A program made the position numbers and the translations under genes. Shown one piece after another: positions 1,032-18,444 of a stretch of 36,688 bases of DNA. Origin of the DNA: a virus (Duplodnaviria > Caudoviricetes); the IMG/VR virus record IMGVR_UViG_3300032237_000091, positions 1-36,688 of that record. One strand, given 5' to 3'. The notes under the pieces are model-generated. The model was not told the origin of the DNA. It ran no database searches and saw nothing but the letters and a program-made list of their open reading frames with translations. Within the stretch, counting starts at the first letter, position 1. Every line of letters begins with the position of its first letter.

Positions 1032-1037
1032 CCACCT

Positions 1038-1062
1038 ACTTTGCGACATCATGTCGCCAAGT
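1038..1062. repeat. 25-bp palindrome copy 1 (ACTTTGCGACA-TCA-TGTCGCCAAGT)
   Basis: Intergenic inverted repeat, 11-bp arms with one mismatch; near-identical copies at 2199, 3815 and 5897. Confidence 0.95.
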
Positions 1063-1066
1063 AACT

Positions 1067-1080
1067 TAACCAAGAAGGAG
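1067..1080 (+). promoter_or_regulatory. conserved RBS leader TAACCAAGAAGGAG copy 1
   Basis: Identical 14-mer precedes the ATGs at 1089, 2247 and 3871. Confidence 0.9.
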
Positions 1081-1088
1081 AATTAAAT

Positions 1089-2183: not shown

Positions 2184-2198
2184 TAGTAAAGCAGTAGA

Positions 2199-2223
2199 AC
2201 TTGGCGACATCGTGTCGCTAAGT
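2199..2223. repeat. 25-bp palindrome copy 2 (ACTTGGCGACA-TCG-TGTCGCTAAGT)
   Basis: Intergenic inverted repeat with one G-T pair. Confidence 0.95.
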
Positions 2224-2227
2224 AACT

Positions 2228-2241
2228 TAACCAAGAAGGAG
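2228..2241 (+). promoter_or_regulatory. conserved RBS leader TAACCAAGAAGGAG copy 2
   Basis: Exact copy upstream of ATG 2247. Confidence 0.9.
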
Positions 2242-2246
2242 TAACC

Positions 2247-2543
2247 ATGTTTATAAAAGGCAAAGAAATGGCTGATGAAGCACGTGATTTGAGAGATGCA
2301 CTTGCTGAAGTATGTGGTGAAGGTGACCATAGTTTAGGTGTAGTTATGACTTCACTTAGTGCGTTGCTAGTAGACACTGCATTAGAGCAAGCAGAAATAG
2401 AACCTTACGAACTAATAGGTAAGTTCGCAGGTATAGTTATGGCTTTCGTAAAAGTAATGGAAGAAGCCGAAACCGAAGTCGAAGTCGAAGAAAGAGTTGA
2501 AGAAGCACTTAACGAGAAAGGAGCATTACAATGGCTAAACTAA
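2247..2543 (+). CDS. small acidic hypothetical protein (98 aa)
   Basis: Strong SD; ORF overlaps the next gene; Glu-rich C-terminus. Confidence 0.8.
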   Translation: MFIKGKEMADEARDLRDALAEVCGEGDHSLGVVMTSLSALLVDTALEQAEIEPYELIGKFAGIVMAFVKVMEEAETEVEVEERVEEALNEKGALQWLN

Positions 2544-3802: not shown

Positions 3803-3814
3803 TAACCAATAGGA

Positions 3815-3839
3815 ACTTGGCGACATCGTGTCGCCAAGT
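3815..3839. repeat. 25-bp palindrome copy 3 (ACTTGGCGACA-TCG-TGTCGCCAAGT)
   Basis: Intergenic; perfect 11-bp arms. Confidence 0.95.
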
Positions 3840-3850
3840 ATCCACCAACA

Positions 3851-3864
3851 TAACCAAGAAGGAG
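3851..3864 (+). promoter_or_regulatory. conserved RBS leader TAACCAAGAAGGAG copy 3
   Basis: Exact copy upstream of ATG 3871. Confidence 0.9.
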
Positions 3865-3870
3865 TAATAT

Positions 3871-4773: not shown

Positions 4774-4785
4774 TAGGAGGTATAT

Positions 4786-5739
4786 ATGTTGACACAAATT
4801 GATAAGAGCAATATGTCTAATGCTAAGAGGTCTATAGAACTTGACCCCAAGTTAGGTGAGTACGTTGATGCAGTCGCAATGCTTAAGCCCTTATGCAACT
4901 TTGTTGCAGAAGATAATAACGTATCACAACATTGGGGGGACTTCATAAACGAAGAGGGTAAGAAAGATCGAAAGATATTTGAGTTTCTATCTTCTGTGCA
5001 AGTGTATGAAAATGGTGAACGTCTAGGCGATGTAGGTATAGCACACGTATATCGTAGAAACGAAGGTGGGCATGTGTTTGTTTACTTTGTAGATTCTTTT
5101 CGTATCTCTAAGGAAAGAGGTCAGCACAACAGGACCTTAAGCAAACACTTGAAGGTAGCATTACGGCATGTTAATAAAGCCTTTATACCTAGAGCAAACC
5201 AAGAACTAATCGAACAGATTAGTCAGCATGTTAGTTATAGACTTGGTCATGTTATGGGTAACAATCACAATCAAGCAAGGTGGTGTATAGACTGCGATAC
5301 CGAAGCGATGAACTATGCGTATTTAGCATACAAGGCTAGGTTGCGTGGCGAGACTACCGTAACGCTACCGACTGTGTTGGCTACTTCAAAAAAACGCAAT
5401 GACAATGACTTTGACAAATATATGGAAAGGTATGACGAAGCCAAGAAACTTACCGACCACTATAACAATATTGGTAGCAACGGCAACATAGGGTATGCAG
5501 TACAAGGCAAGTCAGATAAAAGTTTTGTTGTATGCAACTATGACAAGAACGACCCTAATACTTTATACAAATATAAATCATTAGATGATATGCCCAAACA
5601 TCTAGCCGATAAAATATCTGTTCTAAAGTTATTAGATATTGATGAGCCTGTTGGACACATTGGAGTTAAGTTACATTCTGATGGTGATATTAATCTTGAA
5701 TACTATTATTTAGTTTCGGGTGATATAATATTTGAGTAA
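4786..5739 (+). CDS. hypothetical protein (317 aa)
   Basis: AGGAGG SD and long ORF; no family recognised. Confidence 0.85.
   Translation: MLTQIDKSNMSNAKRSIELDPKLGEYVDAVAMLKPLCNFVAEDNNVSQHWGDFINEEGKKDRKIFEFLSSVQVYENGERLGDVGIAHVYRRNEGGHVFVYFVDSFRISKERGQHNRTLSKHLKVALRHVNKAFIPRANQELIEQISQHVSYRLGHVMGNNHNQARWCIDCDTEAMNYAYLAYKARLRGETTVTLPTVLATSKKRNDNDFDKYMERYDEAKKLTDHYNNIGSNGNIGYAVQGKSDKSFVVCNYDKNDPNTLYKYKSLDDMPKHLADKISVLKLLDIDEPVGHIGVKLHSDGDINLEYYYLVSGDIIFE
5721..5729 (+). promoter_or_regulatory. extended -10 sigma70 promoter (TGaTATAAT) for candidate sRNA1
   Basis: Perfect TGnTATAAT inside the last codons of ORF 4786; predicted start about G5736; no good -35. Confidence 0.6.
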
Positions 5740-5889
5740 CCCTTCTTGGTTACAGATACTAATGTAATGCCGTATACCTATATAGCATGATGTAGATATA
5801 TGGCGTCGGGAAACCGAGCATCTCCAATAACACAAGTAGGATGTGAATCTGCTTTAGCCTACACTAAGCCCTCTTCGGAGGGCTTTTTT
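5736..5889 (+). ncRNA. candidate structured antisense small RNA 1 (~154 nt)
   Basis: Flanked by a promoter and a terminator; several stems with G-U pairs; 5741-5752 is the exact reverse complement of three RBS leaders. Confidence 0.65.
5866..5889 (+). terminator. Rho-independent terminator
   Basis: AAGCCCTC-TTCG-GAGGGCTT followed by a T run. Confidence 0.92.
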
Positions 5890-5896
5890 ATTGGCT

Positions 5897-5921
5897 ACTT
5901 GGCGACATCATGTCGCTAAGT
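5897..5921. repeat. 25-bp palindrome copy 4 (ACTTGGCGACA-TCA-TGTCGCTAAGT)
   Basis: Lies between the terminator and the next promoter; not followed by the RBS leader. Confidence 0.95.
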
Positions 5922-5960
5922 TACTAGGGTTTGCACCTATAAAATATTTTTAAAAACCTC

Positions 5961-5990
5961 TTGCAATTATGGTTTGCTTAAGACTATACT
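5961..5990 (+). promoter_or_regulatory. sigma70-type promoter of the replication block
   Basis: TTGCAA-N18-TATACT with an AT-rich UP-like tract at 5939-5956. Confidence 0.6.
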
Positions 5991-6028
5991 GTGTCAATAG
6001 ATTAAAAATAAATAGGAAAAGTTAAACC

Positions 6029-6349
6029 ATGTCTACACCTGAATATAAGGTCAAGGCTATTGTCACCGACATACTTGATGAACACGATGTATATTATTTC
6101 AAACCTGCAACGCATGGCTACGGTAGGTCAGGAGTTCCTGATGTAGTTGCGTGCTACAACGGCACGTTCATTGCGATTGAATGTAAGGCAGGCTCAAACA
6201 AACCAACTAAATTACAAGAGCGAGAGATAGCCCGCATCAAAGAAGCAGGGGGCATTGCACTCGTCATCAACGCTGACAACACGAGCGACTTAGTTAAACT
6301 AATCGCTCGACTTAGCACCAGTTCTTTGAAAGGAAACCAAGATGAATGA
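6029..6349 (+). CDS. VRR-NUC / Holliday-junction resolvase-like nuclease
   Basis: GVPD...FIAIECKA...PTKLQ PD-(D/E)XK signature. Confidence 0.88.
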   Translation: MSTPEYKVKAIVTDILDEHDVYYFKPATHGYGRSGVPDVVACYNGTFIAIECKAGSNKPTKLQEREIARIKEAGGIALVINADNTSDLVKLIARLSTSSLKGNQDE

Positions 6350-6623
6350 TGGAATAGCAATAGTATTAGCACGCATGGAAACACACCCCGAAGAGTTTTA
6401 CACAACTGCAACGGATAAGTGGAAGTTTATTTATAGCGACTACTTTAAAGATGCAATGAGCGAAACTGAAAAAGGTATGATTTACGACAAGATTAAAGAG
6501 ATTCGTAAAGCAGAGTTCACTGCAAGGGTTATGCAAACCATGACTGCTGACATAACGAGTGATGAACTACGATTAGACTTTGGCAATGCACCTATGGCAG
6601 GTTCAAGAGTAGTTTACAAATGA
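6342..6623 (+). CDS. hypothetical protein (93 aa)
   Basis: AAGGA SD; overlaps both neighbours. Confidence 0.8.
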   Translation: MNDGIAIVLARMETHPEEFYTTATDKWKFIYSDYFKDAMSETEKGMIYDKIKEIRKAEFTARVMQTMTADITSDELRLDFGNAPMAGSRVVYK

Positions 6624-8449
6624 ACATAATCACATTAGATTTTGAAACGTATTACTCACAGGACTTTAGTCTTACTAAGATGACTACTGAAGAGTATGTT
6701 CGCAGTGATGATTTTCAAGTAATAGGCGTTGCTATTAAGGAGAATGATGGTGAAACTAAATGGTTTGATGGACAAAATAATAAATTGGGTGATGTGCTTG
6801 CTAGGTATAACTTTGCTGATTCTTTTGTCCTCGCTCACAATGCTATGTTTGACAGCGCTATATTATCTTGGCACTATGATATTAAACCCTTCGCATGGCT
6901 CGATACCTTGTCTATGGCAAGGGCAACTGATGGGTTAGAAGTTGGTAATAGTTTGGCTAAGTTGGCTGAACGCTATGGCCTAGGCGTAAAGGGTTCTGAA
7001 GTAATAGACGCTAAAGGTAAACGAATTGCTGACTTTACCGAAACGGAATTAAAACAGTATGGCGAATATTGTAAAAATGATGTTGAGATGACCTATAAAC
7101 TTTTTGACATTCTTGTTGACCGTTTTAGTAAATCTGAATTGCAATTAATCAGTTTAACTATCAAAATGTTTTCCGAGCCAGTTCTTCTCCTTGATAGCCT
7201 TTTGCTTGAACAACATCTTATGGAAGTTAAAGAACGCAAAGAAAAATTACTTGATGCTTGCATATCAGACAAAGATACATTGATGAGCAACCCAAAGTTT
7301 GCCGAATTGTTAATTAGTCTAGGCGTTGAGCCACCAATGAAAGAAAGCCCTGCCAATGGAAGACAAACATTTGCCTTTGCTAAAAACGATGAAGGTTTCA
7401 AAGCCCTCGCCGAACATCCCGACGAAAGAGTTCAAGCTCTTGTCTCGGCACGAATGGGAACTAAGTCAACGCTTGAAGAAACAAGAACTCAACGATTCAT
7501 TGATATCTCATTTCGAGGCAAAATGCCTGTCCCCTTGCGATATTACGCCGCACACACAGGAAGATGGGGAGGTGATGACAAACTTAATCTCCAAAATCTC
7601 CCAAGGAAATCACTCCTTAAATCGAGCATTATTGGACCTAATAAATTCATCCTTGTTGACGCCGACTCGTCCCAAATCGAAGCGAGGACGGTAGCGTGGC
7701 TTGCTGGTCAGAACGATCTCGTTTTAGCCTTTGAAAGGAAAGAAGATGTCTATAAGATTATGGCTAGCAGTATTTACAACAAAGCGGTCGAAGACATCAC
7801 GGACTCGGAAAGGTTCGTGGGCAAGACGACAATCCTCGGCGCAGGCTACGGCATGGGTGCAACAAAGTTTGCTATACAACTCAAAACTTTTGGCGTGGAA
7901 ATCGAGGAGCAGGAAGCGAAGAGAATTATCGACGTATACCGTGCAACCTATCCAAGAATCCCCGAACTGTGGAAGGAAGCAAATCGTTCCCTTGACGCTA
8001 TGGCACAAAAGAAAACTTGTGAAGTTGGGTGTCAACCCGAAGCACTTAGCCTTACGGCATCAGGTTTTCTACTCCCGAGCGGACTTTACCTCAATTACAA
8101 CGACCTTAGACGAGACGATGACGCATATAGTTATGGAAGTAGACGAGGGCGTGTGAAGATTTATGGCGGGAAGGTAGTGGAAAACTTATGTCAGGCTGTA
8201 GCACGATGCATTATTGGTGAGCAGATGTTGCGTATAGCCAAGCGTTACAAGGTAGCACTAACGGTTCACGATGCGGTCATGGCAGTTGTACCCGAAGAAG
8301 AACGTGATGAAGCTATTAAGTATATACATGATTGTATGAGTTGGCGTCCAAGCTGGGCTAAAACATTACCTCTTGCTTGTGAAATAGGTGCGGGTAAAAG
8401 CTATGCTGATTGCGGTAAGAAAATGTCAATAGAAAAATGGGGGTTGTGA
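6620..8449 (+). CDS. polA: family A DNA polymerase with 3'-5' exonuclease
   Basis: ExoI DFETY, ExoII HNAMFD, TGRW, NLQNLP, motif A DSSQIEAR, motif B RFVGKTTILGAGYG, motif C VHDA. Confidence 0.95.
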   Translation: MNIITLDFETYYSQDFSLTKMTTEEYVRSDDFQVIGVAIKENDGETKWFDGQNNKLGDVLARYNFADSFVLAHNAMFDSAILSWHYDIKPFAWLDTLSMARATDGLEVGNSLAKLAERYGLGVKGSEVIDAKGKRIADFTETELKQYGEYCKNDVEMTYKLFDILVDRFSKSELQLISLTIKMFSEPVLLLDSLLLEQHLMEVKERKEKLLDACISDKDTLMSNPKFAELLISLGVEPPMKESPANGRQTFAFAKNDEGFKALAEHPDERVQALVSARMGTKSTLEETRTQRFIDISFRGKMPVPLRYYAAHTGRWGGDDKLNLQNLPRKSLLKSSIIGPNKFILVDADSSQIEARTVAWLAGQNDLVLAFERKEDVYKIMASSIYNKAVEDITDSERFVGKTTILGAGYGMGATKFAIQLKTFGVEIEEQEAKRIIDVYRATYPRIPELWKEANRSLDAMAQKKTCEVGCQPEALSLTASGFLLPSGLYLNYNDLRRDDDAYSYGSRRGRVKIYGGKVVENLCQAVARCIIGEQMLRIAKRYKVALTVHDAVMAVVPEEERDEAIKYIHDCMSWRPSWAKTLPLACEIGAGKSYADCGKKMSIEKWGL

Positions 8450-8709
8450 TGGGTAAAAGAAGAAACATTAAAGGTTGGGATGTAATGTGTAACGTAGAAG
8501 CAATTGTTTTTGATGTAAAAAATTACATGGGTATATTACATGTAAATGAATTTAATAGCCCTGACATGGCTAAAACTATTTATTGTTTTCAATCAGTAGA
8601 CCCTAGTATAAAACGTATAGATGTATACACAAATAATGAACCTGACGTTATGTATTTAAAACAAACTGATGATGATACATGGCGAGCAATTAATTTAATA
8701 AACGAATAA
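8449..8709 (+). CDS. hypothetical protein
   Basis: Start moved to ATG 8449 (TGATG overlap with the polA stop, GGGGG SD). Confidence 0.7.
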   Translation: MGKRRNIKGWDVMCNVEAIVFDVKNYMGILHVNEFNSPDMAKTIYCFQSVDPSIKRIDVYTNNEPDVMYLKQTDDDTWRAINLINE

Positions 8710-8723
8710 GAATGGGGGTTGTG

Positions 8724-9851
8724 ATGACTGAACTATTAGAAAGATTAAGTAGTGGGTTGTTAAAAATACTAGACATGTTTAAAAAACCTGAGTTAATTAA
8801 ACCTGTTGATGAAGGCGTTGAGATTAAAGTCGTTGACCCAAGTGATAAAAAGCTTGATGAAAAAGAAGACTTCCCTGAAACGCTAAGTGAGTTACTTGAT
8901 CACTTAGATTTTACATTTGATGCATATAGTATGCGTTCTTTTAGTACAAGCTGGCTAGATGCTGATAGCCGTAATGGTTTAAAAAAGTTAGGCGCACATG
9001 TACCAAATCCGTGGCAACATGTATGGTATGAGGACACTAGCAAATTAAAAGTTGATGTATCTAAGGGCATGCCGTCCATTATATTTATAGCCACACCACA
9101 CACAAAAACAGAAGGTAGAGTTGCACCAGCATATTTTTTTGCTATTAAGCATAGTAAGTTACCGTGGCATATAGAACAAAAGGAAGGTACTCCATATCAA
9201 TTCGGTATGGCTTTTGCCGACAACAAATTATTTTGGCATTGTTCTTGGGTTGTAGTTAGAAAAGATGGTGCATTTGATTTTTGTAAAGAACACGTACACA
9301 AAACTATACCTATTGTTTATAAGGGTAAATACAAAGGTAATTATATGAAGCCTGTATTTAAAGAAACCACAATGATTGAAGATTATAGTGAAGATAAAAA
9401 GAATGGCGAAGCAATTATGAAGAACTCGTTTAAATCTGCTTTTGATTGGTGGGTTAACCGCAACGACCGTTGGAATGTAGCAGTTAAGAAAGGTAATGAC
9501 AGGGTTACGTTTTGCGTTGACAAAACACTAACTAAAAAATATTTTGCCGATAGAGATAAAACTGCAGTAACACCGACAGGGCAAAAGAAAAAGATTATAC
9601 ATTATGTAAAAATGCATGAACGAAAAGTCAAAGATAAGATTAGTACAGTTAGAGAACACATACGAGGCATGAATAAGTTTGAGTGGAAAGGGTATAAATG
9701 CACTGTGTCTGCTCCTGAGTTTGGTATGCAAATCACTAGTACTTTTACTGCTGAAGCACATATTTTAGAAAAGAAAACAAAAGAGTTTGTATCCATGAGT
9801 AGAGTTGGCAGTATGTTAGCCGCAAACGAAGAAAGCAGAGCGCAAAGATGA
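8724..9851 (+). CDS. hypothetical protein with paired VxxHxR motifs
   Basis: Long ORF; start probably ATG 8724; VKMHER and VREHIRG near the C-terminus. Confidence 0.8.
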   Translation: MTELLERLSSGLLKILDMFKKPELIKPVDEGVEIKVVDPSDKKLDEKEDFPETLSELLDHLDFTFDAYSMRSFSTSWLDADSRNGLKKLGAHVPNPWQHVWYEDTSKLKVDVSKGMPSIIFIATPHTKTEGRVAPAYFFAIKHSKLPWHIEQKEGTPYQFGMAFADNKLFWHCSWVVVRKDGAFDFCKEHVHKTIPIVYKGKYKGNYMKPVFKETTMIEDYSEDKKNGEAIMKNSFKSAFDWWVNRNDRWNVAVKKGNDRVTFCVDKTLTKKYFADRDKTAVTPTGQKKKIIHYVKMHERKVKDKISTVREHIRGMNKFEWKGYKCTVSAPEFGMQITSTFTAEAHILEKKTKEFVSMSRVGSMLAANEESRAQR

Positions 9852-10513
9852 AGTGGTCATATTCCTCAATTAGTTTGTTTCAACAGTGCCCACGCAAGTA
9901 TTACCATCTGCGTGTAGTTAAAGATATTGTTGAGCCTGAGTCAGAAGCTATGCTATACGGCACACTCGTGCATAAGGCTGCGGAAGACTATATTAATAGT
10001 GACATCCAGATCCCTGAGAAGTTCTCATACATTACGCCAGCATTGGATATGTTAAAGAAGATCCCGGGTGAAAAGCTATGCGAATACAAAATGGGTTTGA
10101 CGCAAGATTTAAAACCATGCGATTTCTTTGGCGAGGATGTTTGGTTCAGGGGTGTGGCTGACTTGCTTGTCATTCAAGACGATATTGCACATATTGTTGA
10201 CTATAAAACAGGTAAGAGTTCACAGTATGCCGATGTTAAGCAACTAGAACTTATGGCATTGGCGGTGTTTAAACACTTCCCTCAGATAACAAAAGTTAAA
10301 GCTGGACTTGCTTTCTTGGTTGCTGAAGATTTAGTAACTGCTTCATACAAAAAAGAAGCGGAAGCCGAGTCATGGGTTAAGTGGATGCAAGAAACGGATA
10401 GGTTGCAAGCGTCATACGATAACGACGTGTGGAACGCTAAGCCTAACTTTACTTGCAAAAAGTTTTGTGCAGTAAAAACATGTGAACATAATGGAAAAGG
10501 ACAGTGGCGATGA
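9848..10513 (+). CDS. Cas4/RecB-like PD-(D/E)XK exonuclease
   Basis: WSYS...CPRKY, GTLVH, GVAD...IVDYKTGK, QL, C-terminal CxxxCxxxxC. Confidence 0.9.
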   Translation: MKWSYSSISLFQQCPRKYYHLRVVKDIVEPESEAMLYGTLVHKAAEDYINSDIQIPEKFSYITPALDMLKKIPGEKLCEYKMGLTQDLKPCDFFGEDVWFRGVADLLVIQDDIAHIVDYKTGKSSQYADVKQLELMALAVFKHFPQITKVKAGLAFLVAEDLVTASYKKEAEAESWVKWMQETDRLQASYDNDVWNAKPNFTCKKFCAVKTCEHNGKGQWR

Positions 10514-10692
10514 TAGGTGATGATGATTTACGAGATTTGTTTGCCATGTTTAAGTCAGTAACAGGTGTTAATGCAGAAGAATGTTATAAGTTTGCAGATG
10601 CAATGATGGAAGCACGGATTAAAGAGGAAAGTTATGCCGAAAAAGGGATTACCGCAATTAAAAAAAGAACCGCAACAAGAAAGATGGATTAG
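10510..10692 (+). CDS. small hypothetical protein
   Basis: ATGA overlap at 10510; LRDLFA...YKFADAMMEAR pattern is common in small phage proteins. Confidence 0.7.
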   Translation: MIGDDDLRDLFAMFKSVTGVNAEECYKFADAMMEARIKEESYAEKGITAIKKRTATRKMD

Positions 10693-10828
10693 TGACGGTA
10701 TGACTCAAGATGAAGTTGCAGAAGCTTTGGGTATGAAGAGACACCAAGTGGATAAACTTGAGAAATTAGCGTTGCGTAAGTTGAAATACATTGTTTTGCG
10801 GAAAAACAAAAAAGAAGATTTTTTATAA
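10634..10828 (+). CDS. sigma-region-4-like HTH protein
   Basis: MTQDEVAEALGMKRHQVDKLEKLALRKLK. Confidence 0.75.
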   Translation: MPKKGLPQLKKEPQQERWISDGMTQDEVAEALGMKRHQVDKLEKLALRKLKYIVLRKNKKEDFL

Positions 10829-10837
10829 GGGGTGTAT

Positions 10838-10999
10838 ATGTACAAGATATACAACGAATACGATGAGTTGATACGAGTAGTTAAGCACAAAGAAGAAGCC
10901 GATCACTTTGTCAATGACTACGGTTGGACTAAGAAGTTTTTTAAGCAAGAAAACAAGACGAAAGAAGTATTACAAAACATGGAGGAAGCAATGCTATGA
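10838..10999 (+). CDS. small hypothetical protein (53 aa, MYKIYNEYDELIRVV...)
   Basis: Hand-translated; AAGGGG SD; ATGA overlap with the next gene. Confidence 0.7.
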   Translation: MYKIYNEYDELIRVVKHKEEADHFVNDYGWTKKFFKQENKTKEVLQNMEEAML

Positions 11000-11187
11000 G
11001 TGATACGTTATATAAAGTTGCAGGGTTTATTTCTATTATTGTTTGCTTGTACCTCATCTTTATGACGGAACTTGCTCGTAGAGAAACGCAGACCCATTGG
11101 GGTACAAAGAACTGTGAACTGTCGGAGATTAGCCCTGACTTTACACCACAAGAGAAAGCTGATTGTAGAATAGCGAGGAAGAAATGA
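10996..11187 (+). CDS. small membrane-anchored hypothetical protein
   Basis: N-terminal hydrophobic helix; C..SEISPDF.....C motif. Confidence 0.75.
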   Translation: MSDTLYKVAGFISIIVCLYLIFMTELARRETQTHWGTKNCELSEISPDFTPQEKADCRIARKK

Positions 11188-11327
11188 ATGACTTTGAAAA
11201 ATGGGTGTTGATGTTAGATGATGAGTTTAAACACATTCACAAAAACGAGTTGCTAGATATTTTTTTAGAGTTTATGTTGCACTGGATAGGCATTGTTGGT
11301 TGGCAAGAGAAAGCGAGTGAGAAATGA
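11184..11327 (+). CDS. small hypothetical protein (47 aa, ends KASEK)
   Basis: Hand-translated; ATGA overlaps at both ends. Confidence 0.65.
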   Translation: MNDFEKWVLMLDDEFKHIHKNELLDIFLEFMLHWIGIVGWQEKASEK

Positions 11328-11605
11328 ATGTAAATGATTTAGCAGATAGATTAGAGCAGTTTTATATAGGCACTCATATTGACAAAGCGGCTGAAACATT
11401 ACGTCAACAAGCCCAAGAAATAGAAGCGTTAAAAAAAGCAATTGTAGAATATGCTGACTGTGTAGGCTCTATAGAAGGAAAGGATTTTATTGGCGACTTA
11501 AAATATATGGGCACATCAAAAGAATCAATTGCGTTGTTGTATAAACTTAATGGTTATGACGAGAATGGGTATTGGATACACACAAGAAAGGAGAATGGGG
11601 AATGA
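11324..11605 (+). CDS. hypothetical protein
   Basis: Coupled ORF; MNxNDLAD...AAETLRQQAQEIEALK coiled-coil start. Confidence 0.75.
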   Translation: MNVNDLADRLEQFYIGTHIDKAAETLRQQAQEIEALKKAIVEYADCVGSIEGKDFIGDLKYMGTSKESIALLYKLNGYDENGYWIHTRKENGE

Positions 11606-11946
11606 TACCAACGTGGCAAGAACGATGCGAAAAGTTTGAAGATGGTGAAATTGTTACTAACGCAAAAATTCAACAGGCAATGCAAGAAGAGATTGATGAG
11701 TTGCGTAAAGAACTAGCACTACAAAAGTTATCTGATATTAGTCAAGCGATTGAAGATCGAGACTCTGCTCTATACGCTACTGGGTATTGGAAAGGTATTG
11801 AATATAAAAGAATGCGTGAACTAACTGATGAGGAAATAATGGAAATATACGATAGAGTAGAGTTGTACAACATTGATGAAGGGCAAATGTATTTAAAGCC
11901 AATTGAGTTTGCTAAAGAGTTATTAAAGAAAGCGAGTGAGAAATGA
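11602..11946 (+). CDS. hypothetical protein (LTDEEI motif, ends KASEK)
   Basis: Start moved to the ATGA overlap at 11602. Confidence 0.75.
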   Translation: MIPTWQERCEKFEDGEIVTNAKIQQAMQEEIDELRKELALQKLSDISQAIEDRDSALYATGYWKGIEYKRMRELTDEEIMEIYDRVELYNIDEGQMYLKPIEFAKELLKKASEK

Positions 11947-12014
11947 CCGAGTTTGAAGACAAAGTGCTTGAACTTTTAAAAGAAATATTAGCTTTGTTAA
12001 AGGCGGGTAAATGA
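11943..12014 (+). CDS. very small hypothetical peptide (23 aa)
   Basis: MTEFEDKVLELLKEILALLKAGK; ATGA overlaps at both ends. Confidence 0.5.
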   Translation: MTEFEDKVLELLKEILALLKAGK

Positions 12015-12202
12015 CTAGCGAAGAAGTTGTGCAAATACTCAAGGAAATTACCGATTGTTACGGTAAAGAATCTATGCCAAAATACATAGTGTTAAACGAT
12101 GGAACAGTGTATTTTTACATGAAAGATGAGGATAAGTATGCCCTATGTAACCAAACCCCGCCCGTACAAGAAAGAATATCAGCAACAGAAGGAGCGAAAT
12201 GA
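12011..12202 (+). CDS. small hypothetical protein
   Basis: Coupled ORF whose 3' end overlaps the HNH gene. Confidence 0.55.
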   Translation: MTSEEVVQILKEITDCYGKESMPKYIVLNDGTVYFYMKDEDKYALCNQTPPVQERISATEGAK

Positions 12203-12419
12203 ACAGCCCTCAAGGAACGCTCGTGCCCGAGCAAGATACGAAATGGATGCCAAAGGAGTCGATCGAACAGGTAAAGACATCGACCACACCATCCCCCTTA
12301 GCAAAGGTGGGACTAACGCCAAGTCAAACCTCAAACTTAAATCTCCAAGCGCAAACCGTTCCTTTTCCCGAAACTCAGACCACACAGTCAAAAAGAACAA
12401 ACCAAAGAATGCTAGATGA
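12138..12419 (+). CDS. small HNH endonuclease
   Basis: DIDHTIPLSKGGTNAKSNL...NR motif; start ATG 12138 after GAGGA. Confidence 0.85.
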   Translation: MPYVTKPRPYKKEYQQQKERNEQPSRNARARARYEMDAKGVDRTGKDIDHTIPLSKGGTNAKSNLKLKSPSANRSFSRNSDHTVKKNKPKNAR

Positions 12420-13785
12420 TTATTCATGGCCTGGTGTTTATCCTCCTATGGTACACCAGAAAGACACGGCAGATTTTTTAGTCCGCAATAAACGTTCATT
12501 TTGTTTTAATGAGCAAGGTACAGGTAAAACTGCGTCAGCTATATGGGCGGCAGATTACTTATTAGAAAACAAAGCAATTAAGCGTGTTCTAATTGTATGC
12601 CCTTTATCTATCATGCAGTCAGCATGGCAAGCCGACTTGTTTAAGTTTGCAGTACACCGCAAAGTTGGTGTGGCGTATGGCGACAGAAATAAACGCAAAG
12701 CAATTATTAATAGTGATGCTGAGTTTGTCATTATTAATTATGACGGTGTTGAGATTGTTGCAGATGATATATCTAGAGGTAAGTTTGATTTAATAATTAT
12801 TGACGAAGCTAACGCATACAAAACAGTAACCACTAATCGTTGGAAGATTATGAATAAGTTAGTTACTCCGACTACAGGGTTATGGCTTATGACAGGGACG
12901 CCAGCCGCTCAATCTCCTACCGATGCCTACGGCTTAGCCAAACTATGCGTGCCCAATAGAGTGCCTAGATTCTTTGGTGCTTTTAGGGATAAGACAATGA
13001 CTAATATAAGTCAATTTAGATGGATACCTAAACCAAACGCTAACGAAGTTGTGTTTGATGCATTACAACCAGCTATTCGATATATTAAAAAAGATTGTTT
13101 AGATTTACCAGAGGTTACTCACGTATACCGTGATGCTCCACTTACTGCACAACAAGAAAAATACTACAAGCTTCTAAAGAAAGAAATGCTTATGGTAGCT
13201 GGCGGTGAAGAAATTAGTGCAGTTAACGCAGCGGTTAACCTTAATAAACTTTTGCAGATTAGTGGTGGCGCAGTTTATAGCGACAACGGCAGTGTGGTGG
13301 AGTTTGATGTATCTAACCGATTAAAAGTTATTGAAGAAGTAATTAATGAGTCGAGCAATAAAGTCCTTGTGTTCGTACCGTTTACGCATACAATAGAATT
13401 GCTTAGATCACATTTGAAAAAGGCGGGTATTAGTTGTGAAGTTATCAATGGTAGCGTAACGGTTAATAAACGCACTGAAATATTTAAAAGGTTTCAAGAA
13501 GCTAATGATATTAAAGTGCTTATCATACAGCCTCAAGCAGCGTCACACGGCGTCACATTAACTGCTGCGGATACAATCATATGGTACGCACCAGTTACCT
13601 CTATAGAAACTTATCTACAAGCTAATGCACGCATAGATAGACAAGGTCAGAAAAACAAAATGACTGTTGTGCATATTAAGGGTAGTCCCGTAGAGACAAG
13701 GATGTATGGTATGTTGCAAAATAAACTAGATGTGCATACAAAAATAATTGATTTATACAAAAAAGAAGTTGAAGAAAACACTTGA
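12409..13785 (+). CDS. SNF2-family (SF2) helicase
   Basis: QGTGKT, DEAN, MTGTP, HGVTLT, QANARIDRQGQ; start moved to ATG 12409. Confidence 0.92.
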   Translation: MLDDYSWPGVYPPMVHQKDTADFLVRNKRSFCFNEQGTGKTASAIWAADYLLENKAIKRVLIVCPLSIMQSAWQADLFKFAVHRKVGVAYGDRNKRKAIINSDAEFVIINYDGVEIVADDISRGKFDLIIIDEANAYKTVTTNRWKIMNKLVTPTTGLWLMTGTPAAQSPTDAYGLAKLCVPNRVPRFFGAFRDKTMTNISQFRWIPKPNANEVVFDALQPAIRYIKKDCLDLPEVTHVYRDAPLTAQQEKYYKLLKKEMLMVAGGEEISAVNAAVNLNKLLQISGGAVYSDNGSVVEFDVSNRLKVIEEVINESSNKVLVFVPFTHTIELLRSHLKKAGISCEVINGSVTVNKRTEIFKRFQEANDIKVLIIQPQAASHGVTLTAADTIIWYAPVTSIETYLQANARIDRQGQKNKMTVVHIKGSPVETRMYGMLQNKLDVHTKIIDLYKKEVEENT

Positions 13786-13809
13786 CAGTGTAAATAGTTG
13801 TGGTAAAGT
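13782..13809 (+). promoter_or_regulatory. sigma70-type promoter
   Basis: TTGACA-N16-TAAAGT with extended -10 TG. Confidence 0.55.
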
Positions 13810-13853
13810 AATTATTAACGAACAAAGATTCGTTTTTATTTGAAAGGAAAAGT

Positions 13854-14258
13854 ATGGAACCAAATGACGGCATCAACGTCGAGAAACTCGTCTCCGTCTT
13901 TATTAAGATTAGGGATGCACGAGAAGAAGCTAAGCGTGAATGGGAAGAGATTGATAGCGATTTTGCTACCAAGCTGGATCTTATTAACCAAGAGCTTTTA
14001 GACATATGTAAAGATACAGGAGCCGATAGCATTAAGACTAAATTCGGCACTGCTATTCGCACAATCAAATCCAAATATTGGACTAACGATTGGGAAAAGT
14101 TTCATGGTTGGTTGCTTGATAACAAGATACCTGAAGTTTTAGAAAAGCGTATCCATCAAACAAACATGAAACAATTTCTAGAAGAAAATCCGGACTTGTT
14201 GCCCCCCGGACTAAACGTGGACAACGCATATCACATAACTGTAAGGAGAAGTAAATGA
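13854..14258 (+). CDS. conserved phage replication-module protein (134 aa)
   Basis: Coiled-coil N-terminus; SIKTKFGT, DW..F and PPGL motifs. Confidence 0.8.
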   Translation: MEPNDGINVEKLVSVFIKIRDAREEAKREWEEIDSDFATKLDLINQELLDICKDTGADSIKTKFGTAIRTIKSKYWTNDWEKFHGWLLDNKIPEVLEKRIHQTNMKQFLEENPDLLPPGLNVDNAYHITVRRSK

Positions 14259-15106
14259 GTGAATTAGCTCTGTTTAACCAAAATCTGCCCGAGTATTTAA
14301 AAGATGTAAAGCTTGATGATGTAACTAAAGCCCTCACGGGTAATGGTGGAAGCAAGCGCATTTCTTTGCGTGGCAGTAAATTTCGTATGGTAGTTAACGG
14401 CGAAGAAATTGTTACAAGCAAAAACGAAGCAATGAATGTTGTTATTGTTAATGCGGCTAAAAATATTTCACGTCAGTTCTACGCTAAATCATATAACCCA
14501 AATGAAGAGGCTACTGCACCTGATTGTTGGTCTAATGATGGCGTAACACCTGATGCCTCTATTAAAGAAGCACAGCATCATAACTGTACCGATTGCCCAC
14601 AAAACATTAAAGGGTCTGGTCAAGGCGATAGTCGTGCTTGTCGTCACCGTCGTAAGTTAGCAGTTGTATTAGCTGATGATGTTGGTGGAGATGTATATCA
14701 ATTAGAGTTAGCATCAAAATCTATTTTTGGTAAAGGCGAATTAAATACTATGCCATTTGAGCAGTTTGCTAAGTATGTTGGCTCACAAGGGTATAACTTA
14801 AATACGCTAGTAACCGAAATTCGTTTTGACGACAACAGTGATGTTGCTAAAGTGTATTTCCGCCCTATTAAGTTTTTAAGCAAAGAAGAATGGGAAGTTG
14901 CTAAACGTCAAGGCGACACACCTGCGGCTAAGAATGCGGTTGTTATGACTGCTGCGCAAACTGATGGTGTAGCTAAGAAAGCTATTGGAGTAACTACACC
15001 AGCTGTAGTAGAAGCTGAAGCTGAGCCAAAAAAGCGTGAAGACAAAAAAGCTGAGCCTACTCCTAAACGTGATTTAAAAGCAGCTTTAGGTGATTGGGCA
15101 AACTAA
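14255..15106 (+). CDS. putative ssDNA-binding/annealing protein with Cys cluster
   Basis: PDCWSNDG...CTDCPQN..GS...RAC; flexible charged tail ending in W; position in the replication module. Confidence 0.6.
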   Translation: MSELALFNQNLPEYLKDVKLDDVTKALTGNGGSKRISLRGSKFRMVVNGEEIVTSKNEAMNVVIVNAAKNISRQFYAKSYNPNEEATAPDCWSNDGVTPDASIKEAQHHNCTDCPQNIKGSGQGDSRACRHRRKLAVVLADDVGGDVYQLELASKSIFGKGELNTMPFEQFAKYVGSQGYNLNTLVTEIRFDDNSDVAKVYFRPIKFLSKEEWEVAKRQGDTPAAKNAVVMTAAQTDGVAKKAIGVTTPAVVEAEAEPKKREDKKAEPTPKRDLKAALGDWAN

Positions 15107-15107
15107 A

Positions 15108-15359
15108 ATGAGCTTGAGAGGTTATAGCTTTCATCTTGTTAAGGCTAACCAAGAAGCAGATACCAAGAAAAATATTGGTGTCCTTCTTGGGAGGGTCTGT
15201 ATTGATAACGACGTACCCGTGGCTAAAGTTGCAAAATATTTTAATGTATCTCGCATGACTATATACTCGTGGTTTACTGGTACGTCAATACCGCACAAGA
15301 ACAAAGCCGAAAAAATTAAAAAACTATTAGACAAACTCCTACCAAATGCGGAAGCATAA
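15108..15359 (+). CDS. Cro/XRE-like HTH protein
   Basis: VAKVAKYFNVSRMTIYSWFTG; start moved to ATG 15108. Confidence 0.8.
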   Translation: MSLRGYSFHLVKANQEADTKKNIGVLLGRVCIDNDVPVAKVAKYFNVSRMTIYSWFTGTSIPHKNKAEKIKKLLDKLLPNAEA

Positions 15360-15371
15360 TTTAAAGGAAAT

Positions 15372-18191
15372 ATGGCAACGACAGACTTACTCAAGGCAGT
15401 GCTGCCTCCTGAAGGGGAAGGTGTCTACTGCATAATCGGTTTAAAAGATGGAATTTATCCTAAGCAATTTTTTGTTGATACATTAACAGAAGTTGAAAAG
15501 CTTATAGATGATTTACTAGCCGATTCAAGGAATGTCTATTTTGGTTGCGCCAAATATATAAACGATACAGACGGAAGAACTCAAAAGAATAGCAATTTTT
15601 TTAGATCCTTTTGGATTGATATTGATTGCGGTTTAGGAAAACCATATGCTACACAAGCTGATGGGTTAGATGCACTTAAAACATTTTGTAACGACATTCA
15701 TTTACCTTTGCCTACCATCGTTAATAGCGGGCGAGGTATACATGCTTATTGGCGTTTATCTAGCACAATTGATCGTGTAAATTGGAAGCCTGTAGCCGAG
15801 CGTATTAAGAGCTTATGTGTAGAGCATGAGTTTAATGCAGACCCATCAAGGACTGCGGATAGTGCTTCTATTTTAAGAGTACCTGAAACTTGGAATCATA
15901 AGGAAGACCAGCCTTTACCTGTAGATTTATTGGCGTTAAGCAAAGAAATAGATTATGAAGATTTAAAACAAATACTTGGCATACTAGTTGCACCTGACTA
16001 TATACCGAGACAATTAAACGAAGTTACTCGTGCATTACTAGGTAATAGGCAAAGTAGGTTTAAAACTATAATGCTCAAGACCATGAACGGCAATGGATGT
16101 AAGCAGTTAGAAAACATTGTACTTGACCAAGAAACTATAGAGGAGCCACTATGGAGGGCAGGATTATCAATCGCCGCACATTGTGTAGACGCAGATGACG
16201 CTATACATAAAATATCATCAAAGCATCCGGAGTACGATCCGACCGAAACCGAAAAGAAAGCCTATTCAACAAAAGGTCCGTACACCTGTCAGACATTTGA
16301 AAAACTTAACCCAAAAGGTTGTGCGGAGTGCGCCCACAAAAATAACATTACATCACCCATACAACTTGGTTCTGAAATTGCTAGTTCGGAAGAAAATCAA
16401 ATCGTTGTTGAGACGGAGGATAATAGGGCGGAAACTTTCGAAGTTCCACAGTATCCATTTCCGTATTTTAGGGGCAAGAACGGAGGCGTCTATATAAGGA
16501 CTGAAGATGAAGATGGTAATCAAGATGCAGCAAATATTTATGAGCATGACTTGTATGTAGTTAAAAGATTATATGACCCTGTAAAAGGCGATACGGTATG
16601 GATAAGATTGCATTTACCTAGAGACGGTATGCGTGAATTTGCTATGCCACAAACTGATGCATTAACATACGAAAAGTTACGGGATAAATTAGCTTGGTAT
16701 GGTGTAGCCGCACCTAAACATCAAATGGCAAATATTATGCAGTACGTTATTACGTTTATTAAAGAAAGTCAACATAGAGATAAGGTAGAAATTATGAGAA
16801 CACAATTTGGTTGGACAGAAGAAAACGATAAATTTATTTTAGGGGAGCAAGAAATCTCCGCTACAGGAACAAGCTATAGCCCACCGTCAACATCAACAGG
16901 TAGCCTAGCAGAATGGTTAAAGCCTACAGGTGACTTCGAGATATGGAAGAAGACCGCAAAGACTTATGATAGACCGGGATTTGAGCCACACGCATTTGGG
17001 TTTTTTACTGCATTCGGTGCGCCACTAATTAAACACCTTAACTTAAAAGGCGCAATTATAAATCTAATCAATAACGAGTCTGGTACAGGTAAGTCAACAA
17101 TATTAAAGATGTGCAATAGTGTATGGGGGCATCCTGAAGAAGTAATGATGCAGTGGAAAGATACGCAGAACACTATCATTCATAGGCTTGGTATCTTAAA
17201 CAATTTACCTGCAACTATTGACGAAGTTACTAAGCTTACACCCGAAGACTTTTCAGATCTTGTATATAGTATCTCGCAAGGTCGTGGTAAAAACCGAATG
17301 AAGCAACATGAAAACGCCGAACGAGTTAACTTTACCAAATGGGCGCTTATAGCTTTATGCAGTTCTAATGCATCATTCTACGATAAGCTATCTAGTCTTA
17401 AGTCTACGCCTGATGGTGAGTTTATGCGGTTGATTGAGTATCGTATTGATAGAACAAATAACTTAACTAAACAAGAAGCAGACGAAATATTTGATACATT
17501 ATACAGCAATTACGGTCATGCTGGGGAAGCTTACGCTAAGTATTTAGTATCTGATTTAGAGTCAGCAATAGATTTAGTTAAACAGATACAACAACGAATT
17601 GATGCTGATGTAGGGTTTACTAGCCGTGAAAGGTTTTGGTCAGGTGTGGTTGCTTGCAACATAGCCGGTGCTTTGATTGCTAAAGATTTAGGCATCATTG
17701 ATTTTAATATTAAGCGAGTATACGATTGGATTTTAGCCGAGCTTAAAGTGATGCGTACTGAAGTTAAAGCGCCAACGCAATCACAGACTAGTGTTATTGG
17801 TGAGTTTATGAATGAGCATCGTGCAGCTACTTTAGTTATTAATGGGGCGGCAGATGCTAGATCAGGTATGGAACAATTGCCTATAGTAGAGCCTAAGTTT
17901 AATGATTTGTACATTAGGATTGAGCCGGATACAAAACGAATGTTTATAAACGCAAAACAACTTAGAACATACTGTACTAAACAACAGATAACTTTAAAAG
18001 AAACATTAAAGAACCTAGCTTTAGAAGGAGTGTACTTGGGTAATGTTAAAAAGCGTATCACAAAAGGTACAAAGATTGTATCGCCTCCAGTAGACGTGCA
18101 TGTATTTGTGTTGGATGCGCCTAATTTTATTGATGCAGAAACTTATATAGAAGCGGCTAAAGCGGATACAAATGCTGATATACGGGATTGA
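15372..18191 (+). CDS. primase-helicase fusion (RepB/AEP-like primase, Cys cluster, DUF927-type helicase)
   Basis: WIDID, SGRGIHAYW, LRVP; PYTC...CAEC; SGTGKST, TIDE. Confidence 0.9.
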   Translation: MATTDLLKAVLPPEGEGVYCIIGLKDGIYPKQFFVDTLTEVEKLIDDLLADSRNVYFGCAKYINDTDGRTQKNSNFFRSFWIDIDCGLGKPYATQADGLDALKTFCNDIHLPLPTIVNSGRGIHAYWRLSSTIDRVNWKPVAERIKSLCVEHEFNADPSRTADSASILRVPETWNHKEDQPLPVDLLALSKEIDYEDLKQILGILVAPDYIPRQLNEVTRALLGNRQSRFKTIMLKTMNGNGCKQLENIVLDQETIEEPLWRAGLSIAAHCVDADDAIHKISSKHPEYDPTETEKKAYSTKGPYTCQTFEKLNPKGCAECAHKNNITSPIQLGSEIASSEENQIVVETEDNRAETFEVPQYPFPYFRGKNGGVYIRTEDEDGNQDAANIYEHDLYVVKRLYDPVKGDTVWIRLHLPRDGMREFAMPQTDALTYEKLRDKLAWYGVAAPKHQMANIMQYVITFIKESQHRDKVEIMRTQFGWTEENDKFILGEQEISATGTSYSPPSTSTGSLAEWLKPTGDFEIWKKTAKTYDRPGFEPHAFGFFTAFGAPLIKHLNLKGAIINLINNESGTGKSTILKMCNSVWGHPEEVMMQWKDTQNTIIHRLGILNNLPATIDEVTKLTPEDFSDLVYSISQGRGKNRMKQHENAERVNFTKWALIALCSSNASFYDKLSSLKSTPDGEFMRLIEYRIDRTNNLTKQEADEIFDTLYSNYGHAGEAYAKYLVSDLESAIDLVKQIQQRIDADVGFTSRERFWSGVVACNIAGALIAKDLGIIDFNIKRVYDWILAELKVMRTEVKAPTQSQTSVIGEFMNEHRAATLVINGAADARSGMEQLPIVEPKFNDLYIRIEPDTKRMFINAKQLRTYCTKQQITLKETLKNLALEGVYLGNVKKRITKGTKIVSPPVDVHVFVLDAPNFIDAETYIEAAKADTNADIRD

Positions 18192-18369
18192 TTTCAATAT
18201 TAATTGGAGTAAGTTTATTGTTGGGGCTTCGTTCTTTATACCGTGCTTAGACTCTGACATGGCTTTAAAACAGATCAAAAGAGCAACAAGACGGCTTAAA
18301 TTTCGTATAAAAACGCAAGTTGTAATAGAAAGAGGCATCCAAGGCTTGCGTGTTTGGAGAATTAAGTAG
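18172..18369 (+). CDS. small basic hypothetical protein
   Basis: W..F.VG.SFFIP...GLRVWR pattern; possibly DNA-binding. Confidence 0.75.
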   Translation: MLIYGIDFNINWSKFIVGASFFIPCLDSDMALKQIKRATRRLKFRIKTQVVIERGIQGLRVWRIK

Positions 18370-18375
18370 TATGAT
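18346..18375 (+). promoter_or_regulatory. sigma70-type promoter for candidate sRNA2
   Basis: TTGCGT-N18-TATGAT; predicted start about G18382; no plus-strand gene follows. Confidence 0.55.
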
Positions 18376-18381
18376 GTAGGT

Positions 18382-18444
18382 GTAACTTCATGGTTACTTT
18401 TCCTTTCGTGAGAACTTTATACCCCACTACGGTGGGGTTTTTTT
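18382..18444 (+). ncRNA. candidate antisense small RNA 2 (~63 nt)
   Basis: Promoter, 5' hairpin, tract CATGGTTACTTTTCCTTTC complementary to several phage RBS/start regions, then a terminator. Confidence 0.6.
18421..18444 (+). terminator. Rho-independent terminator at the junction of the two arms
   Basis: ACCCCAC-TACG-GTGGGGT followed by a T run. Confidence 0.9.

What the first reader, a model, noticed from the sequence alone, without database searches (positions are those of the whole stretch)
5721..18444. Two parallel sRNA cassettes suggest an RNA-based timing circuit
Seen: both loci share one layout. The promoter overlaps the end of the last gene of a block. The predicted start is 7 nt after the -10, at GTAAC. 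A 5' hairpin closes with GGTTAC, an anti-RBS tract lies in or next to it, and the terminator has a C-UNCG-G loop. Leaders fall into two classes, AAGAAGGAG (early) and AGGAAA (replication), each matched by the RNA at the end of its own block. Inference: each block encodes its own translational off-switch, used for temporal shut-off or for a quiescent/carrier state. I do not recall a described system of this form, but could not search for one.
Basis: inference. Interest (0 to 1): 0.85.

Follow-up and report, generated by a model that had tools for sequence, protein, structure and literature searches.

The report
Twin phage RNAs target own genes
An uncultured phage carries two predicted small RNA genes, one at the end of its early genes and one at the end of its DNA-replication genes, each complementary to the ribosome-binding sites of lead genes in its own block; the match changes in step across related phages, so the RNAs likely switch those gene blocks off, though no transcript has been seen.

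Summary
RNA1 (about 5736-5889) is the exact 12-nt complement of three early leaders; RNA2 (about 18382-18444) matches the 13854 leader over 13 nt and, in two blocks, the 6029 leader through its AUG. Across relatives each RNA fits its own genome's leaders better than others': RNA1-early and RNA2-replication p<=5e-5; RNA1-replication p=0.77; RNA2-early p=0.16. The signal sits on four genes that head expression units. RNA2 passes a sister-swap test (13 of 13 untied pairs); RNA1 does not (10 vs 6). GTAAC/GGTTAC are lineage details, block exclusivity has exceptions, and G-U pairs are not enriched. No integrase, resolvase or ParA in 5 of 5 near-complete relatives, so a lytic shut-off is favoured over a carrier state; timing itself is untested. 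It works like P1/P7 C4 RNA but is not a member. This scan noted similar anti-RBS RNAs on other phages' DNA. The SAS repeats of cluster K mycobacteriophages offer a lab test.

The parts
5721..5729 (+). Predicted extended -10 promoter of RNA1, inside the 3' end of ORF 4786-5739
   Evidence: Sequence; a TAnnnT hexamer lies near the stop in most homologues by eye; not listed by the promoter scan
5736..5889 (+). Predicted RNA1: 5' seed hairpin, double-pseudoknot core, terminator
   Evidence: Fold z -3.85; parsed in 42 genome groups; one core copy in 5 of 5 near-complete relatives
5741..5752 (+). RNA1 seed, exact complement of three early leaders; 6 nt exposed in the loop
5762..5862 (+). RNA1 core: P2 hairpin whose loop (5784-5791) pairs with 5847-5853; P4 stem (5831-5845) whose loop (5836-5840) pairs with 5858-5862; linker 5820-5825 is a second anti-SD-like tract
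   Evidence: 89% of cells paired, 12 of 15 pairs with double changes, 0 of 500 shuffles
5866..5889 (+). Intrinsic terminator of RNA1 and of the early block
   Evidence: cUNCGg loop in 35 of 42 homologues
1067..1078 (+). Target: leader of AAA ATPase gene 1089-2183
   Evidence: 12-nt complement; cognate tracking p=1e-4
2228..2249 (+). Target: leader of ORF 2247-2543 (12 nt to RNA1; also 10 nt to RNA2 across the AUG)
3851..3862 (+). Target: leader of the DUF3150-like gene 3871-4773
   Evidence: 12-nt complement; p=1e-4; weak Pfam match
1043..1057 (.). Palindrome copy 1, just upstream of a targeted leader
2204..2218 (.). Palindrome copy 2, just upstream of a targeted leader
3820..3834 (.). Palindrome copy 3, just upstream of a targeted leader
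5902..5916 (.). Palindrome copy 4, between the RNA1 terminator and the replication promoter
5961..5990 (+). Sigma70-type promoter ahead of the first replication gene
6014..6031 (+). Target: leader of VRR-NUC/Hjc nuclease gene 6029-6349; 9 nt over the SD plus a second block through the AUG
   Evidence: p=1e-4
13782..13809 (+). Sigma70-type promoter ahead of gene 13854
13842..13854 (+). Target: leader of gene 13854-14258, head of the run that ends in the primase
   Evidence: 13-nt complement; p=1e-4
18346..18375 (+). Predicted promoter of RNA2 (-35-like in the last codons of ORF 18172-18369; -10 right after its stop)
   Evidence: The -10 and an RNA body before the terminator go together in 29 of 45 distinct loci and are both absent in 13
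18382..18444 (+). Predicted RNA2: 5' stem, anti-AUG and anti-SD tract (18389-18407), terminator 18421-18438

Best explanation
Two predicted small RNAs, likely made from host-polymerase promoters at the ends of the early and the replication blocks, are complementary to the ribosome-binding regions of the genes that head the phage's own expression units and would block their translation by base pairing. RNA1 would silence the AAA ATPase, DUF3150-like and neighbouring early genes; RNA2 would silence the VRR-NUC gene and gene 13854, each of which lies directly behind a sigma70-type promoter and heads a run of overlapping or closely spaced genes, so blocking two ribosome sites could turn down most of the replication block. 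Because all these promoters are of the host type, the RNAs likely accumulate during infection and act as delayed or threshold negative feedback in a lytic cycle. Shown: the sequences, the complementarity, its co-variation, its gene specificity, the covarying RNA1 structure. Inferred: transcription, pairing in the cell, repression, coupling of downstream genes, timing.
For: 12-13 nt exact complements confined to leaders; all 11 late-gene leaders reach at most 6 (RNA1) and 7 (RNA2) nt. Own versus other genomes: RNA1-early 8.33 vs 6.93 nt (21 clusters) and RNA2-replication 8.56 vs 6.56 nt (27 clusters), both p<=5e-5; RNA1-replication 6.69 vs 6.79, p=0.77. Per gene, p=1e-4 on both measures only for AAA and DUF3150 (RNA1) and VRR-NUC and g13854 (RNA2). 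Second, partly independent set of 13: DUF3150 p=0.004/0.007, AAA p=0.007/0.005. RNA2 sister swaps 13 up, 0 down of 14 pairs. Anti-AUG placed 5' of anti-SD in 6 of 25 RNA1 and 6 of 27 RNA2 against about 1 expected, 0 of 500 shuffles; reverse order not enriched; anti-SD core in 27 of 27 RNA2. RNA2 -10 and body co-occur. No integrase, resolvase or ParA in 5 of 5 relatives 96-100% complete.
Against: No expression data. RNA1 fails the sister-swap test (6 vs 4 of 11 pairs; 10 vs 6 of 20). G-U pairs are not enriched at mismatches (14 of 134 own vs 310 of 2147 other; 11 of 62 vs 296 of 1693). Own leaders rank first for only 6 of 21 RNA1 and 13 of 27 RNA2. A clean two-by-two pattern holds in 5 of 8 genomes with both RNAs and early leaders; L013 crosses over. 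Some RNA1 homologues keep the core but have no 5' seed hairpin (L011, L047, L059). Half of the RNA1 seed is in a stem and the RNA2 anti-SD is partly paired in the predicted folds. Distant relatives lack one or both RNAs, so they are dispensable for the family. Clusters are not fully independent.
Confidence: 0.6

Rival explanations
1. Kin exclusion: the same pairing serves mainly to silence the lead genes of a later-arriving phage of the same lineage, and fast seed and leader change lets lineages escape each other, as with C4 specificity in P1 and P7.
For: Seeds and leaders diverge quickly and in step. PMC5320573 (passages) describes C4 as an immunity RNA whose specificity region differs by 4 nt between P1 and P7, in the RNA and in its targets.
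Against: No lysogeny genes in 5 of 5 near-complete relatives. Some RNAs match other lineages' leaders as well as their own (L037 RNA1 with L242 leaders 16 nt vs 13 own). It does not explain one RNA per block.
Confidence: 0.14
2. The RNAs are constitutive threshold setters that hold early or replication genes down from the start (a quiescent or carrier state, or prevention of premature replication) rather than shutting them off late.
For: Both promoters are host-type and need no phage factor (sequence). sRNA control gives a threshold-linear response (PMC1994261, abstract). Operator-like palindromes cover the early arm.
Against: No integrase, resolvase or ParA; no clear prophage hit among GTDB genomes (one weak 19-aa hit).
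Confidence: 0.12
3. The RNAs are general anti-SD decoys aimed chiefly at host mRNAs; the match to phage leaders follows from shared SD use.
For: The anti-SD core is present in 27 of 27 RNA2. Host mRNAs could not be examined (host unknown).
Against: Tracking is specific to four genes and extends outside the SD, upstream and through the AUG; other SD-bearing leaders of the same genome are not tracked (RNA1-replication p=0.77).
Confidence: 0.06
4. A DNA-level or historical effect: seeds are inverted copies of a repeated leader (gene conversion) or protein-binding sites in reverse orientation, and the elements are only terminators with a structured 3' UTR.
For: No G-U enrichment. Leaders are themselves repeats tied to palindromes. 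RNA1 sister test not significant.
Against: Seeds always lie between a -10 and a terminator on one strand, often in hairpin loops, are often bipartite, and keep anti-AUG before anti-SD. RNA2's -10 is kept with sequence variation and lost with the body.
Confidence: 0.08

Closest known systems
C4 antisense RNA of phages P1 and P7 (PMC5320573, passages; Rfam number RF01695 recalled and also named in scan notes)
   Same: Phage-encoded structured RNA that pairs with the phage's own mRNA, occludes a ribosome-binding site, and has lineage-specific seed and target sequences.
   Different: C4 has three stem-loops, is cut from a precursor by RNase P and controls immunity in a temperate phage. Here there are two unrelated RNAs with their own promoter and terminator, multi-gene targets at the heads of early and replication units, a double-pseudoknot core, no Rfam match and no lysogeny genes.
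Cis-antisense phage RNAs: lambda OOP and aQ, P22 sar and sas, BTP1 STnc6030 (PMC12197685, parts 1-2 of 6 read)
   Same: Phage RNA that represses phage genes after transcription and shapes development or exclusion.
   Different: Those are each described against one target gene; these RNAs lie kilobases from several targets and pair through 8-14 nt seeds.
Start-associated sequences (SAS) and extended SAS of cluster K mycobacteriophages (PMC3203893, passages; PMC11373665, passages)
   Same: A conserved leader longer than the SD on non-structural genes, often preceded by an inverted repeat; role stated as unknown; a single reverse-oriented copy noted in four K1 phages.
   Different: No sequence similarity to the RNA1 core. 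No antisense RNA is proposed in the passages read. The reverse copy in Adephagia lies in a hairpin loop, which suggests the same design but is untested.
Bacterial trans-encoded seed-pairing sRNAs (PMC12197685 introduction; PMC1994261 abstract)
   Same: Short seed over SD and AUG, several targets, intrinsic terminator with a U run, predicted threshold response.
   Different: Here regulator and targets are on one phage genome and the targets carry lineage-private leader extensions that change with the seed. Hfq dependence is unknown.

Membership tests
C4 antisense RNA (P1/P7) | Match to the family covariance model | tested here: not met
   Whole-window Rfam scan to E=5 gave 4 weak hits, none C4; the two at these loci fall on or include the terminators and are far below gathering score
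C4 antisense RNA (P1/P7) | Three stem-loops with a' and b' loops | tested here: not met
   RNA1 is seed hairpin plus double pseudoknot; RNA2 is a short 5' stem, a linker and a terminator
C4 antisense RNA (P1/P7) | Processing by RNase P from a longer precursor | not testable with these tools
   No RNA reads; own promoters predicted instead
C4 antisense RNA (P1/P7) | Pairs with own-phage mRNA over a ribosome-binding site, with lineage-specific co-variation | tested here: met
   Computational only:
C4 antisense RNA (P1/P7) | Temperate immunity context | tested here: not met
   0 of 5 near-complete relatives carry PF00589, PF00239 or PF13614; antirepressor families were not searched
Trans-encoded seed-pairing sRNA | Own promoter and intrinsic terminator, no ORF | tested here: met
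   Terminators; -10 conserved with the RNA2 body; no ORF of 50 aa or more over either RNA; promoters are below the scan's cut-off
Trans-encoded seed-pairing sRNA | Seed complementary to distant translation-initiation regions beyond chance | tested here: met
Trans-encoded seed-pairing sRNA | RNA-type pairing (G-U tolerated) | tested here: inconclusive
   No G-U enrichment over other-genome pairs; few mismatches to count
Trans-encoded seed-pairing sRNA | Discrete transcript, repression of targets, chaperone dependence | not testable with these tools
Cis-antisense phage RNA (OOP, sar, aQ) | Transcribed opposite its target at the same locus | tested here: not met
   Both RNAs are on the same strand as, and 1.9-12 kb from, their targets
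Known small ribozymes and riboswitches in Rfam 15 | Covariance-model match to the RNA1 core | tested here: not met
   No hit over 5762-5862 other than a terminator-driven 28-bit hit to SpF51; catalytic or ligand activity is untested
Cluster K SAS/ESAS | The 13-bp SAS consensus at gene starts | not tested
   The consensus was searched only in Adephagia; the window's targeted leaders are a different sequence, so the likeness is one of anatomy

The most novel reading that the evidence does not exclude
A lytic phage family runs its gene programme with a pair of RNA switches instead of its own polymerase or sigma cascade: each block ends in an RNA that silences that block's lead genes, RNA1 is a new double-pseudoknot scaffold carrying swappable seeds, and the same design explains the long-unexplained SAS leaders of cluster K mycobacteriophages, whose single reversed copy sits in a hairpin loop of a widely kept intergenic region.
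Probability: 0.3. Interest if true: 0.9.

Novelty: new variant of a known kind. Interest (0 to 1): 0.74.

Why it matters
Phage timing is usually credited to polymerases, sigma or antitermination factors and protein repressors. A pair of phage RNAs, each co-evolving with private tags on the lead genes of one block, would add RNA feedback as a way to order a lytic cycle. The RNA1 core is a well-supported new pseudoknotted RNA with exchangeable seeds, of interest for RNA structure and for programmable silencing tools. The anatomy also gives a concrete hypothesis for an open question in print: what reads the SAS leaders of cluster K mycobacteriophages. That can be tested in M. smegmatis with existing phages.

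Tried and rejected
Expression: no RNA holder was listed for window 1000-10900; this is no evidence either way, and no reads were laid. A degenerate core pattern in viral contigs returned 120 loci, nearly all chance hits outside the family. blastn of RNA1 against isolated phages hit only the terminator in the 20 of 492 records listed, and none covered 80%; the primase has only distant relatives there (31% or less). Host search: one weak 19-aa hit in GTDB contigs, not used. Structure searches for the two proteins whose genes hold the promoters gave nothing clear (317 aa: no Foldseek E<=0.001; 65 aa: best Z 5.4), so no RNA-chaperone role is claimed. G-U tests were negative. RNA1 sister-swap tests were not significant. 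GTAAC/GGTTAC as a shared functional element was rejected. HDV-like, twister, pistol and hammerhead topologies were compared from memory and do not fit the helix order; Rfam gave no such hit. Literature: nine full-text searches showed no description of this system or phage family; most were seen as listings only. The Fremin 2023 catalogue (PMC10690425) showed no core motif in 6 supplementary files, but 3 files could not be searched and may hold the RNA1 core as an unnamed candidate. Passages of bioRxiv 10.64898/2026.09.22.753630 do not cover it; its supplements were not seen. Automatic start picking was wrong for some leaders (for example g13854 in L013 and L047; several window ORFs), and three RNA2 bodies were over-trimmed and corrected; these errors were left in the counts and work against the signal.

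Full report
Context. The window is a 36.7-kb virus record, 58% complete. It has an early block (AAA ATPase, DUF2201 metallopeptidase/VWA, DUF3150-like, unknowns), a replication block (VRR-NUC/Hjc nuclease, DNA polymerase, exonuclease, helicase, HTH protein, DUF927 primase) and, on the other strand, virion and lysis genes. Isolated phages are only distantly related. Many relatives were found in IMG/VR and metagenomes; I take them to be freshwater phages from recall of such datasets and from scan notes, not from a call of mine.

Observation. Both cassettes are as described. RNA1 positions 5741-5752 are the exact complement of a 12-mer found at three other places in the window, all early leaders (1067, 2228, 3851). 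RNA2 read backwards spells a whole leader with its AUG; it matches the 13854 leader over 13 nt and the 6029 leader over 9 nt plus a second block through the AUG. Of 37 leaders examined, the 11 late-gene leaders reach at most 6 and 7 nt (a few starts were mis-picked). Against neat classes: RNA2 also matches the early 2247 leader over 10 nt, and RNA1 has an 11-nt match inside the HTH gene.

Homologues. From 217 loci with two or more marker genes (153 groups), RNA1 was parsed in 42 groups and RNA2 in 34. For RNA2, a TAnnnT hexamer directly after the stop codon and a body before the terminator occur together in 29 of 45 distinct loci; both are missing in 13, and 3 are discordant, one of them through a parsing error. 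RNA2 keeps a 4-bp 5' stem and the terminator (12 sequences).

Co-variation with own leaders. After clustering RNAs at 75% identity, each RNA was scored against the leaders of every genome. RNA1 against early leaders: own 8.33 nt, other 6.93 (21 clusters from 32 genomes), p<=5e-5. RNA2 against replication leaders: 8.56 vs 6.56 (27 from 34), p<=5e-5. The crossed tests were null: RNA1-replication 6.69 vs 6.79, p=0.77; RNA2-early 7.17 vs 6.81, p=0.16, with only 9 clusters. Duplex energies agreed. Per gene (26 tests, two measures), both measures reached p=1e-4 only for AAA and DUF3150 with RNA1 and for VRR-NUC and g13854 with RNA2. Weaker one-measure signals were RNA1-VWA 0.02, -e6 0.03, -VRR 0.03 and RNA2-VWA 0.006, -r2 0.008, -ssb 0.006, -pol 0.02. 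A second set from metagenomes (13 representatives of 20 loci; 8 of the 13 are 85-91% identical to a discovery RNA, so only partly independent) repeated DUF3150 (p=0.004/0.007) and AAA (n=7, 0.007/0.005), added e6 (0.0005/0.0003), and was null for VWA, pol and VRR. In hand-picked matrices of distinct seed types the own genome was the strict best in 6 of 10 RNA1 rows (3 ties) and 10 of 12 RNA2 rows (2 ties). Sister swaps control for kinship: RNA2 13 up and 0 down of 14 pairs by energy, 11 and 0 by length. RNA1 was not significant: 6 vs 4 of 11 pairs and 10 vs 6 of 20; many sisters share a seed, and the large positive differences come from pairs whose seeds differ.

Is it RNA pairing? For: the seeds lie between a -10 and a terminator on one strand, often in loops, and an anti-AUG lies 5' of an anti-SD in 6 of 25 RNA1 and 6 of 27 RNA2 against about 1 in shuffles (0 of 500), while the reverse order is not enriched. 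Against: G-U pairs are no commoner at own-genome mismatches than at other-genome ones.

Which genes. VRR-NUC and g13854 each lie directly behind a sigma70-type promoter and head runs of overlapping or closely spaced genes. AAA and DUF3150 leaders follow a palindrome found 3-11 times per early arm in 19 of 28 groups examined; in the other 9 my detector found 1-2 copies. So the targets are lead genes of expression units. Blocking them could turn down coupled downstream genes; that step is inference. In 5 of 8 genomes with both RNAs and early leaders the two-by-two pattern is clean; L013 crosses over (RNA2-AAA 12 nt), and L027 and L047 are weak.

Positions 5762-5862 form a hairpin whose loop pairs over 7 bp with 5847-5853, and a second hairpin whose loop pairs with 5858-5862 (68 distinct cores; the parser required the first pairing motifs, which favours that helix). 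On a 35-sequence MAFFT alignment not fitted to the structure, 89% of cells pair, 12 of 15 pairs show double changes, 0 of 500 shuffles reach this, and slid controls give 33-45%. A sequence model finds one copy in 5 of 5 near-complete relatives and hits in 15 of 85 sources, none among the 19 unrelated phage loci or Adephagia. The core persists where the 5' seed hairpin is absent, and its linker can itself match a leader (L027, L013, L235). No Rfam family matches. It most likely is a stabilising or protein-binding scaffold; catalysis is not excluded.

Function. No tyrosine integrase, serine resolvase or ParA was found in 5 relatives 96-100% complete, which favours a lytic cycle over lysogeny or carriage. 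With host-type promoters throughout, accumulating sRNAs would give delayed or threshold repression (threshold behaviour: PMC1994261, abstract only). I put about 0.85 on real antisense RNAs and 0.6 on feedback shut-off as their main role; kin exclusion and early threshold are the main rivals.

Known systems. It works like C4 RNA of P1/P7 (PMC5320573, passages) but fails membership on model match, structure and context. A 2025 review (PMC12197685, parts 1-2 of 6) lists single-target and host-directed phage RNAs in the parts read, none of this form. Cluster K SAS/ESAS leaders (PMC3203893 and PMC11373665, passages) share the leader-plus-palindrome anatomy, with role unknown. In Adephagia 16 of 17 SAS matches in the right arm are forward and one is reversed; the reversed one fills a 10-nt hairpin loop in the gene 92-93 gap (z -6.0; no Rfam match of note), and that region has matches in 184 Mycobacterium phage records, some of which annotate a small ORF there. 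Nine searches found no paper on this system (listed under Tried and rejected). The scan's own notes describe similar anti-RBS RNAs on other phages and the palindromes in this family; they are unchecked and are not counted as support.

Verdict. Real, conserved and co-evolving; a new variant of phage antisense control with a new RNA fold in one of the two RNAs. Transcription and timing remain to be shown. Interest 0.74.

Noticed in passing
window 1043-1057, 2204-2218, 3820-3834, 5902-5916; L215, L256, L228, L255 and others: Lineage-specific palindrome with a free 3-bp centre, repeated across the early arm ahead of leaders and after the RNA1 terminator. Arm mismatches are 79 G-T and 53 A-C, more like a DNA operator than an RNA hairpin.
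   Followed up: partly
window 13782-13794 (+) and 5985-5997 (-): A second near-palindromic motif, defined after the fact, occurs exactly twice in the window, overlapping the two replication promoters; perfect in L015. Candidate operator for the HTH protein 15090-15359.
   Followed up: partly
L426:30592-30760 (Adephagia JF704105, about 58590-58760): The single reversed SAS sits in a 10-nt loop of a strong hairpin in the gene 92-93 gap; the region is widespread in Mycobacterium phage records. Candidate anti-SAS RNA.
   Followed up: partly
L219, L232, L234, L242, L258, L261, L270 (RNA1 3' part): Several RNA1 homologues carry an extra domain between core and terminator with another anti-SD-like tract; L037 carries two 5' seeds, one per target. 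The scaffold looks modular.
   Followed up: partly
L265, L266, L407-L415: A short-core lineage lacks the 5' seed and P3; by eye its linker matches the leader of the gene directly upstream (e6), which may explain the e6 signal.
   Followed up: partly
window 18382-18444 and ORF 18443-26260 (-): The giant virion gene stops at the RNA2 terminator, which has no U run on the minus strand, so late transcripts may run through RNA2 as an antisense copy and could titrate it.
   Followed up: no
L290, L294, L298, L315, L320: More distant relatives have longer RNA2 versions with two or three anti-SD tracts; L290 shows RNA2 but no RNA1 core hit.
   Followed up: no
L256:2362-4450: Terminase-like genes lie divergent from the early arm, which fixes the early block near one genome end (names by eye, not searched).
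   Followed up: no
window 4786-5739 and 18172-18369: The two proteins whose genes hold the RNA promoters fold with good confidence (pLDDT 83 and 86) but have no clear structural match.
   Followed up: partly
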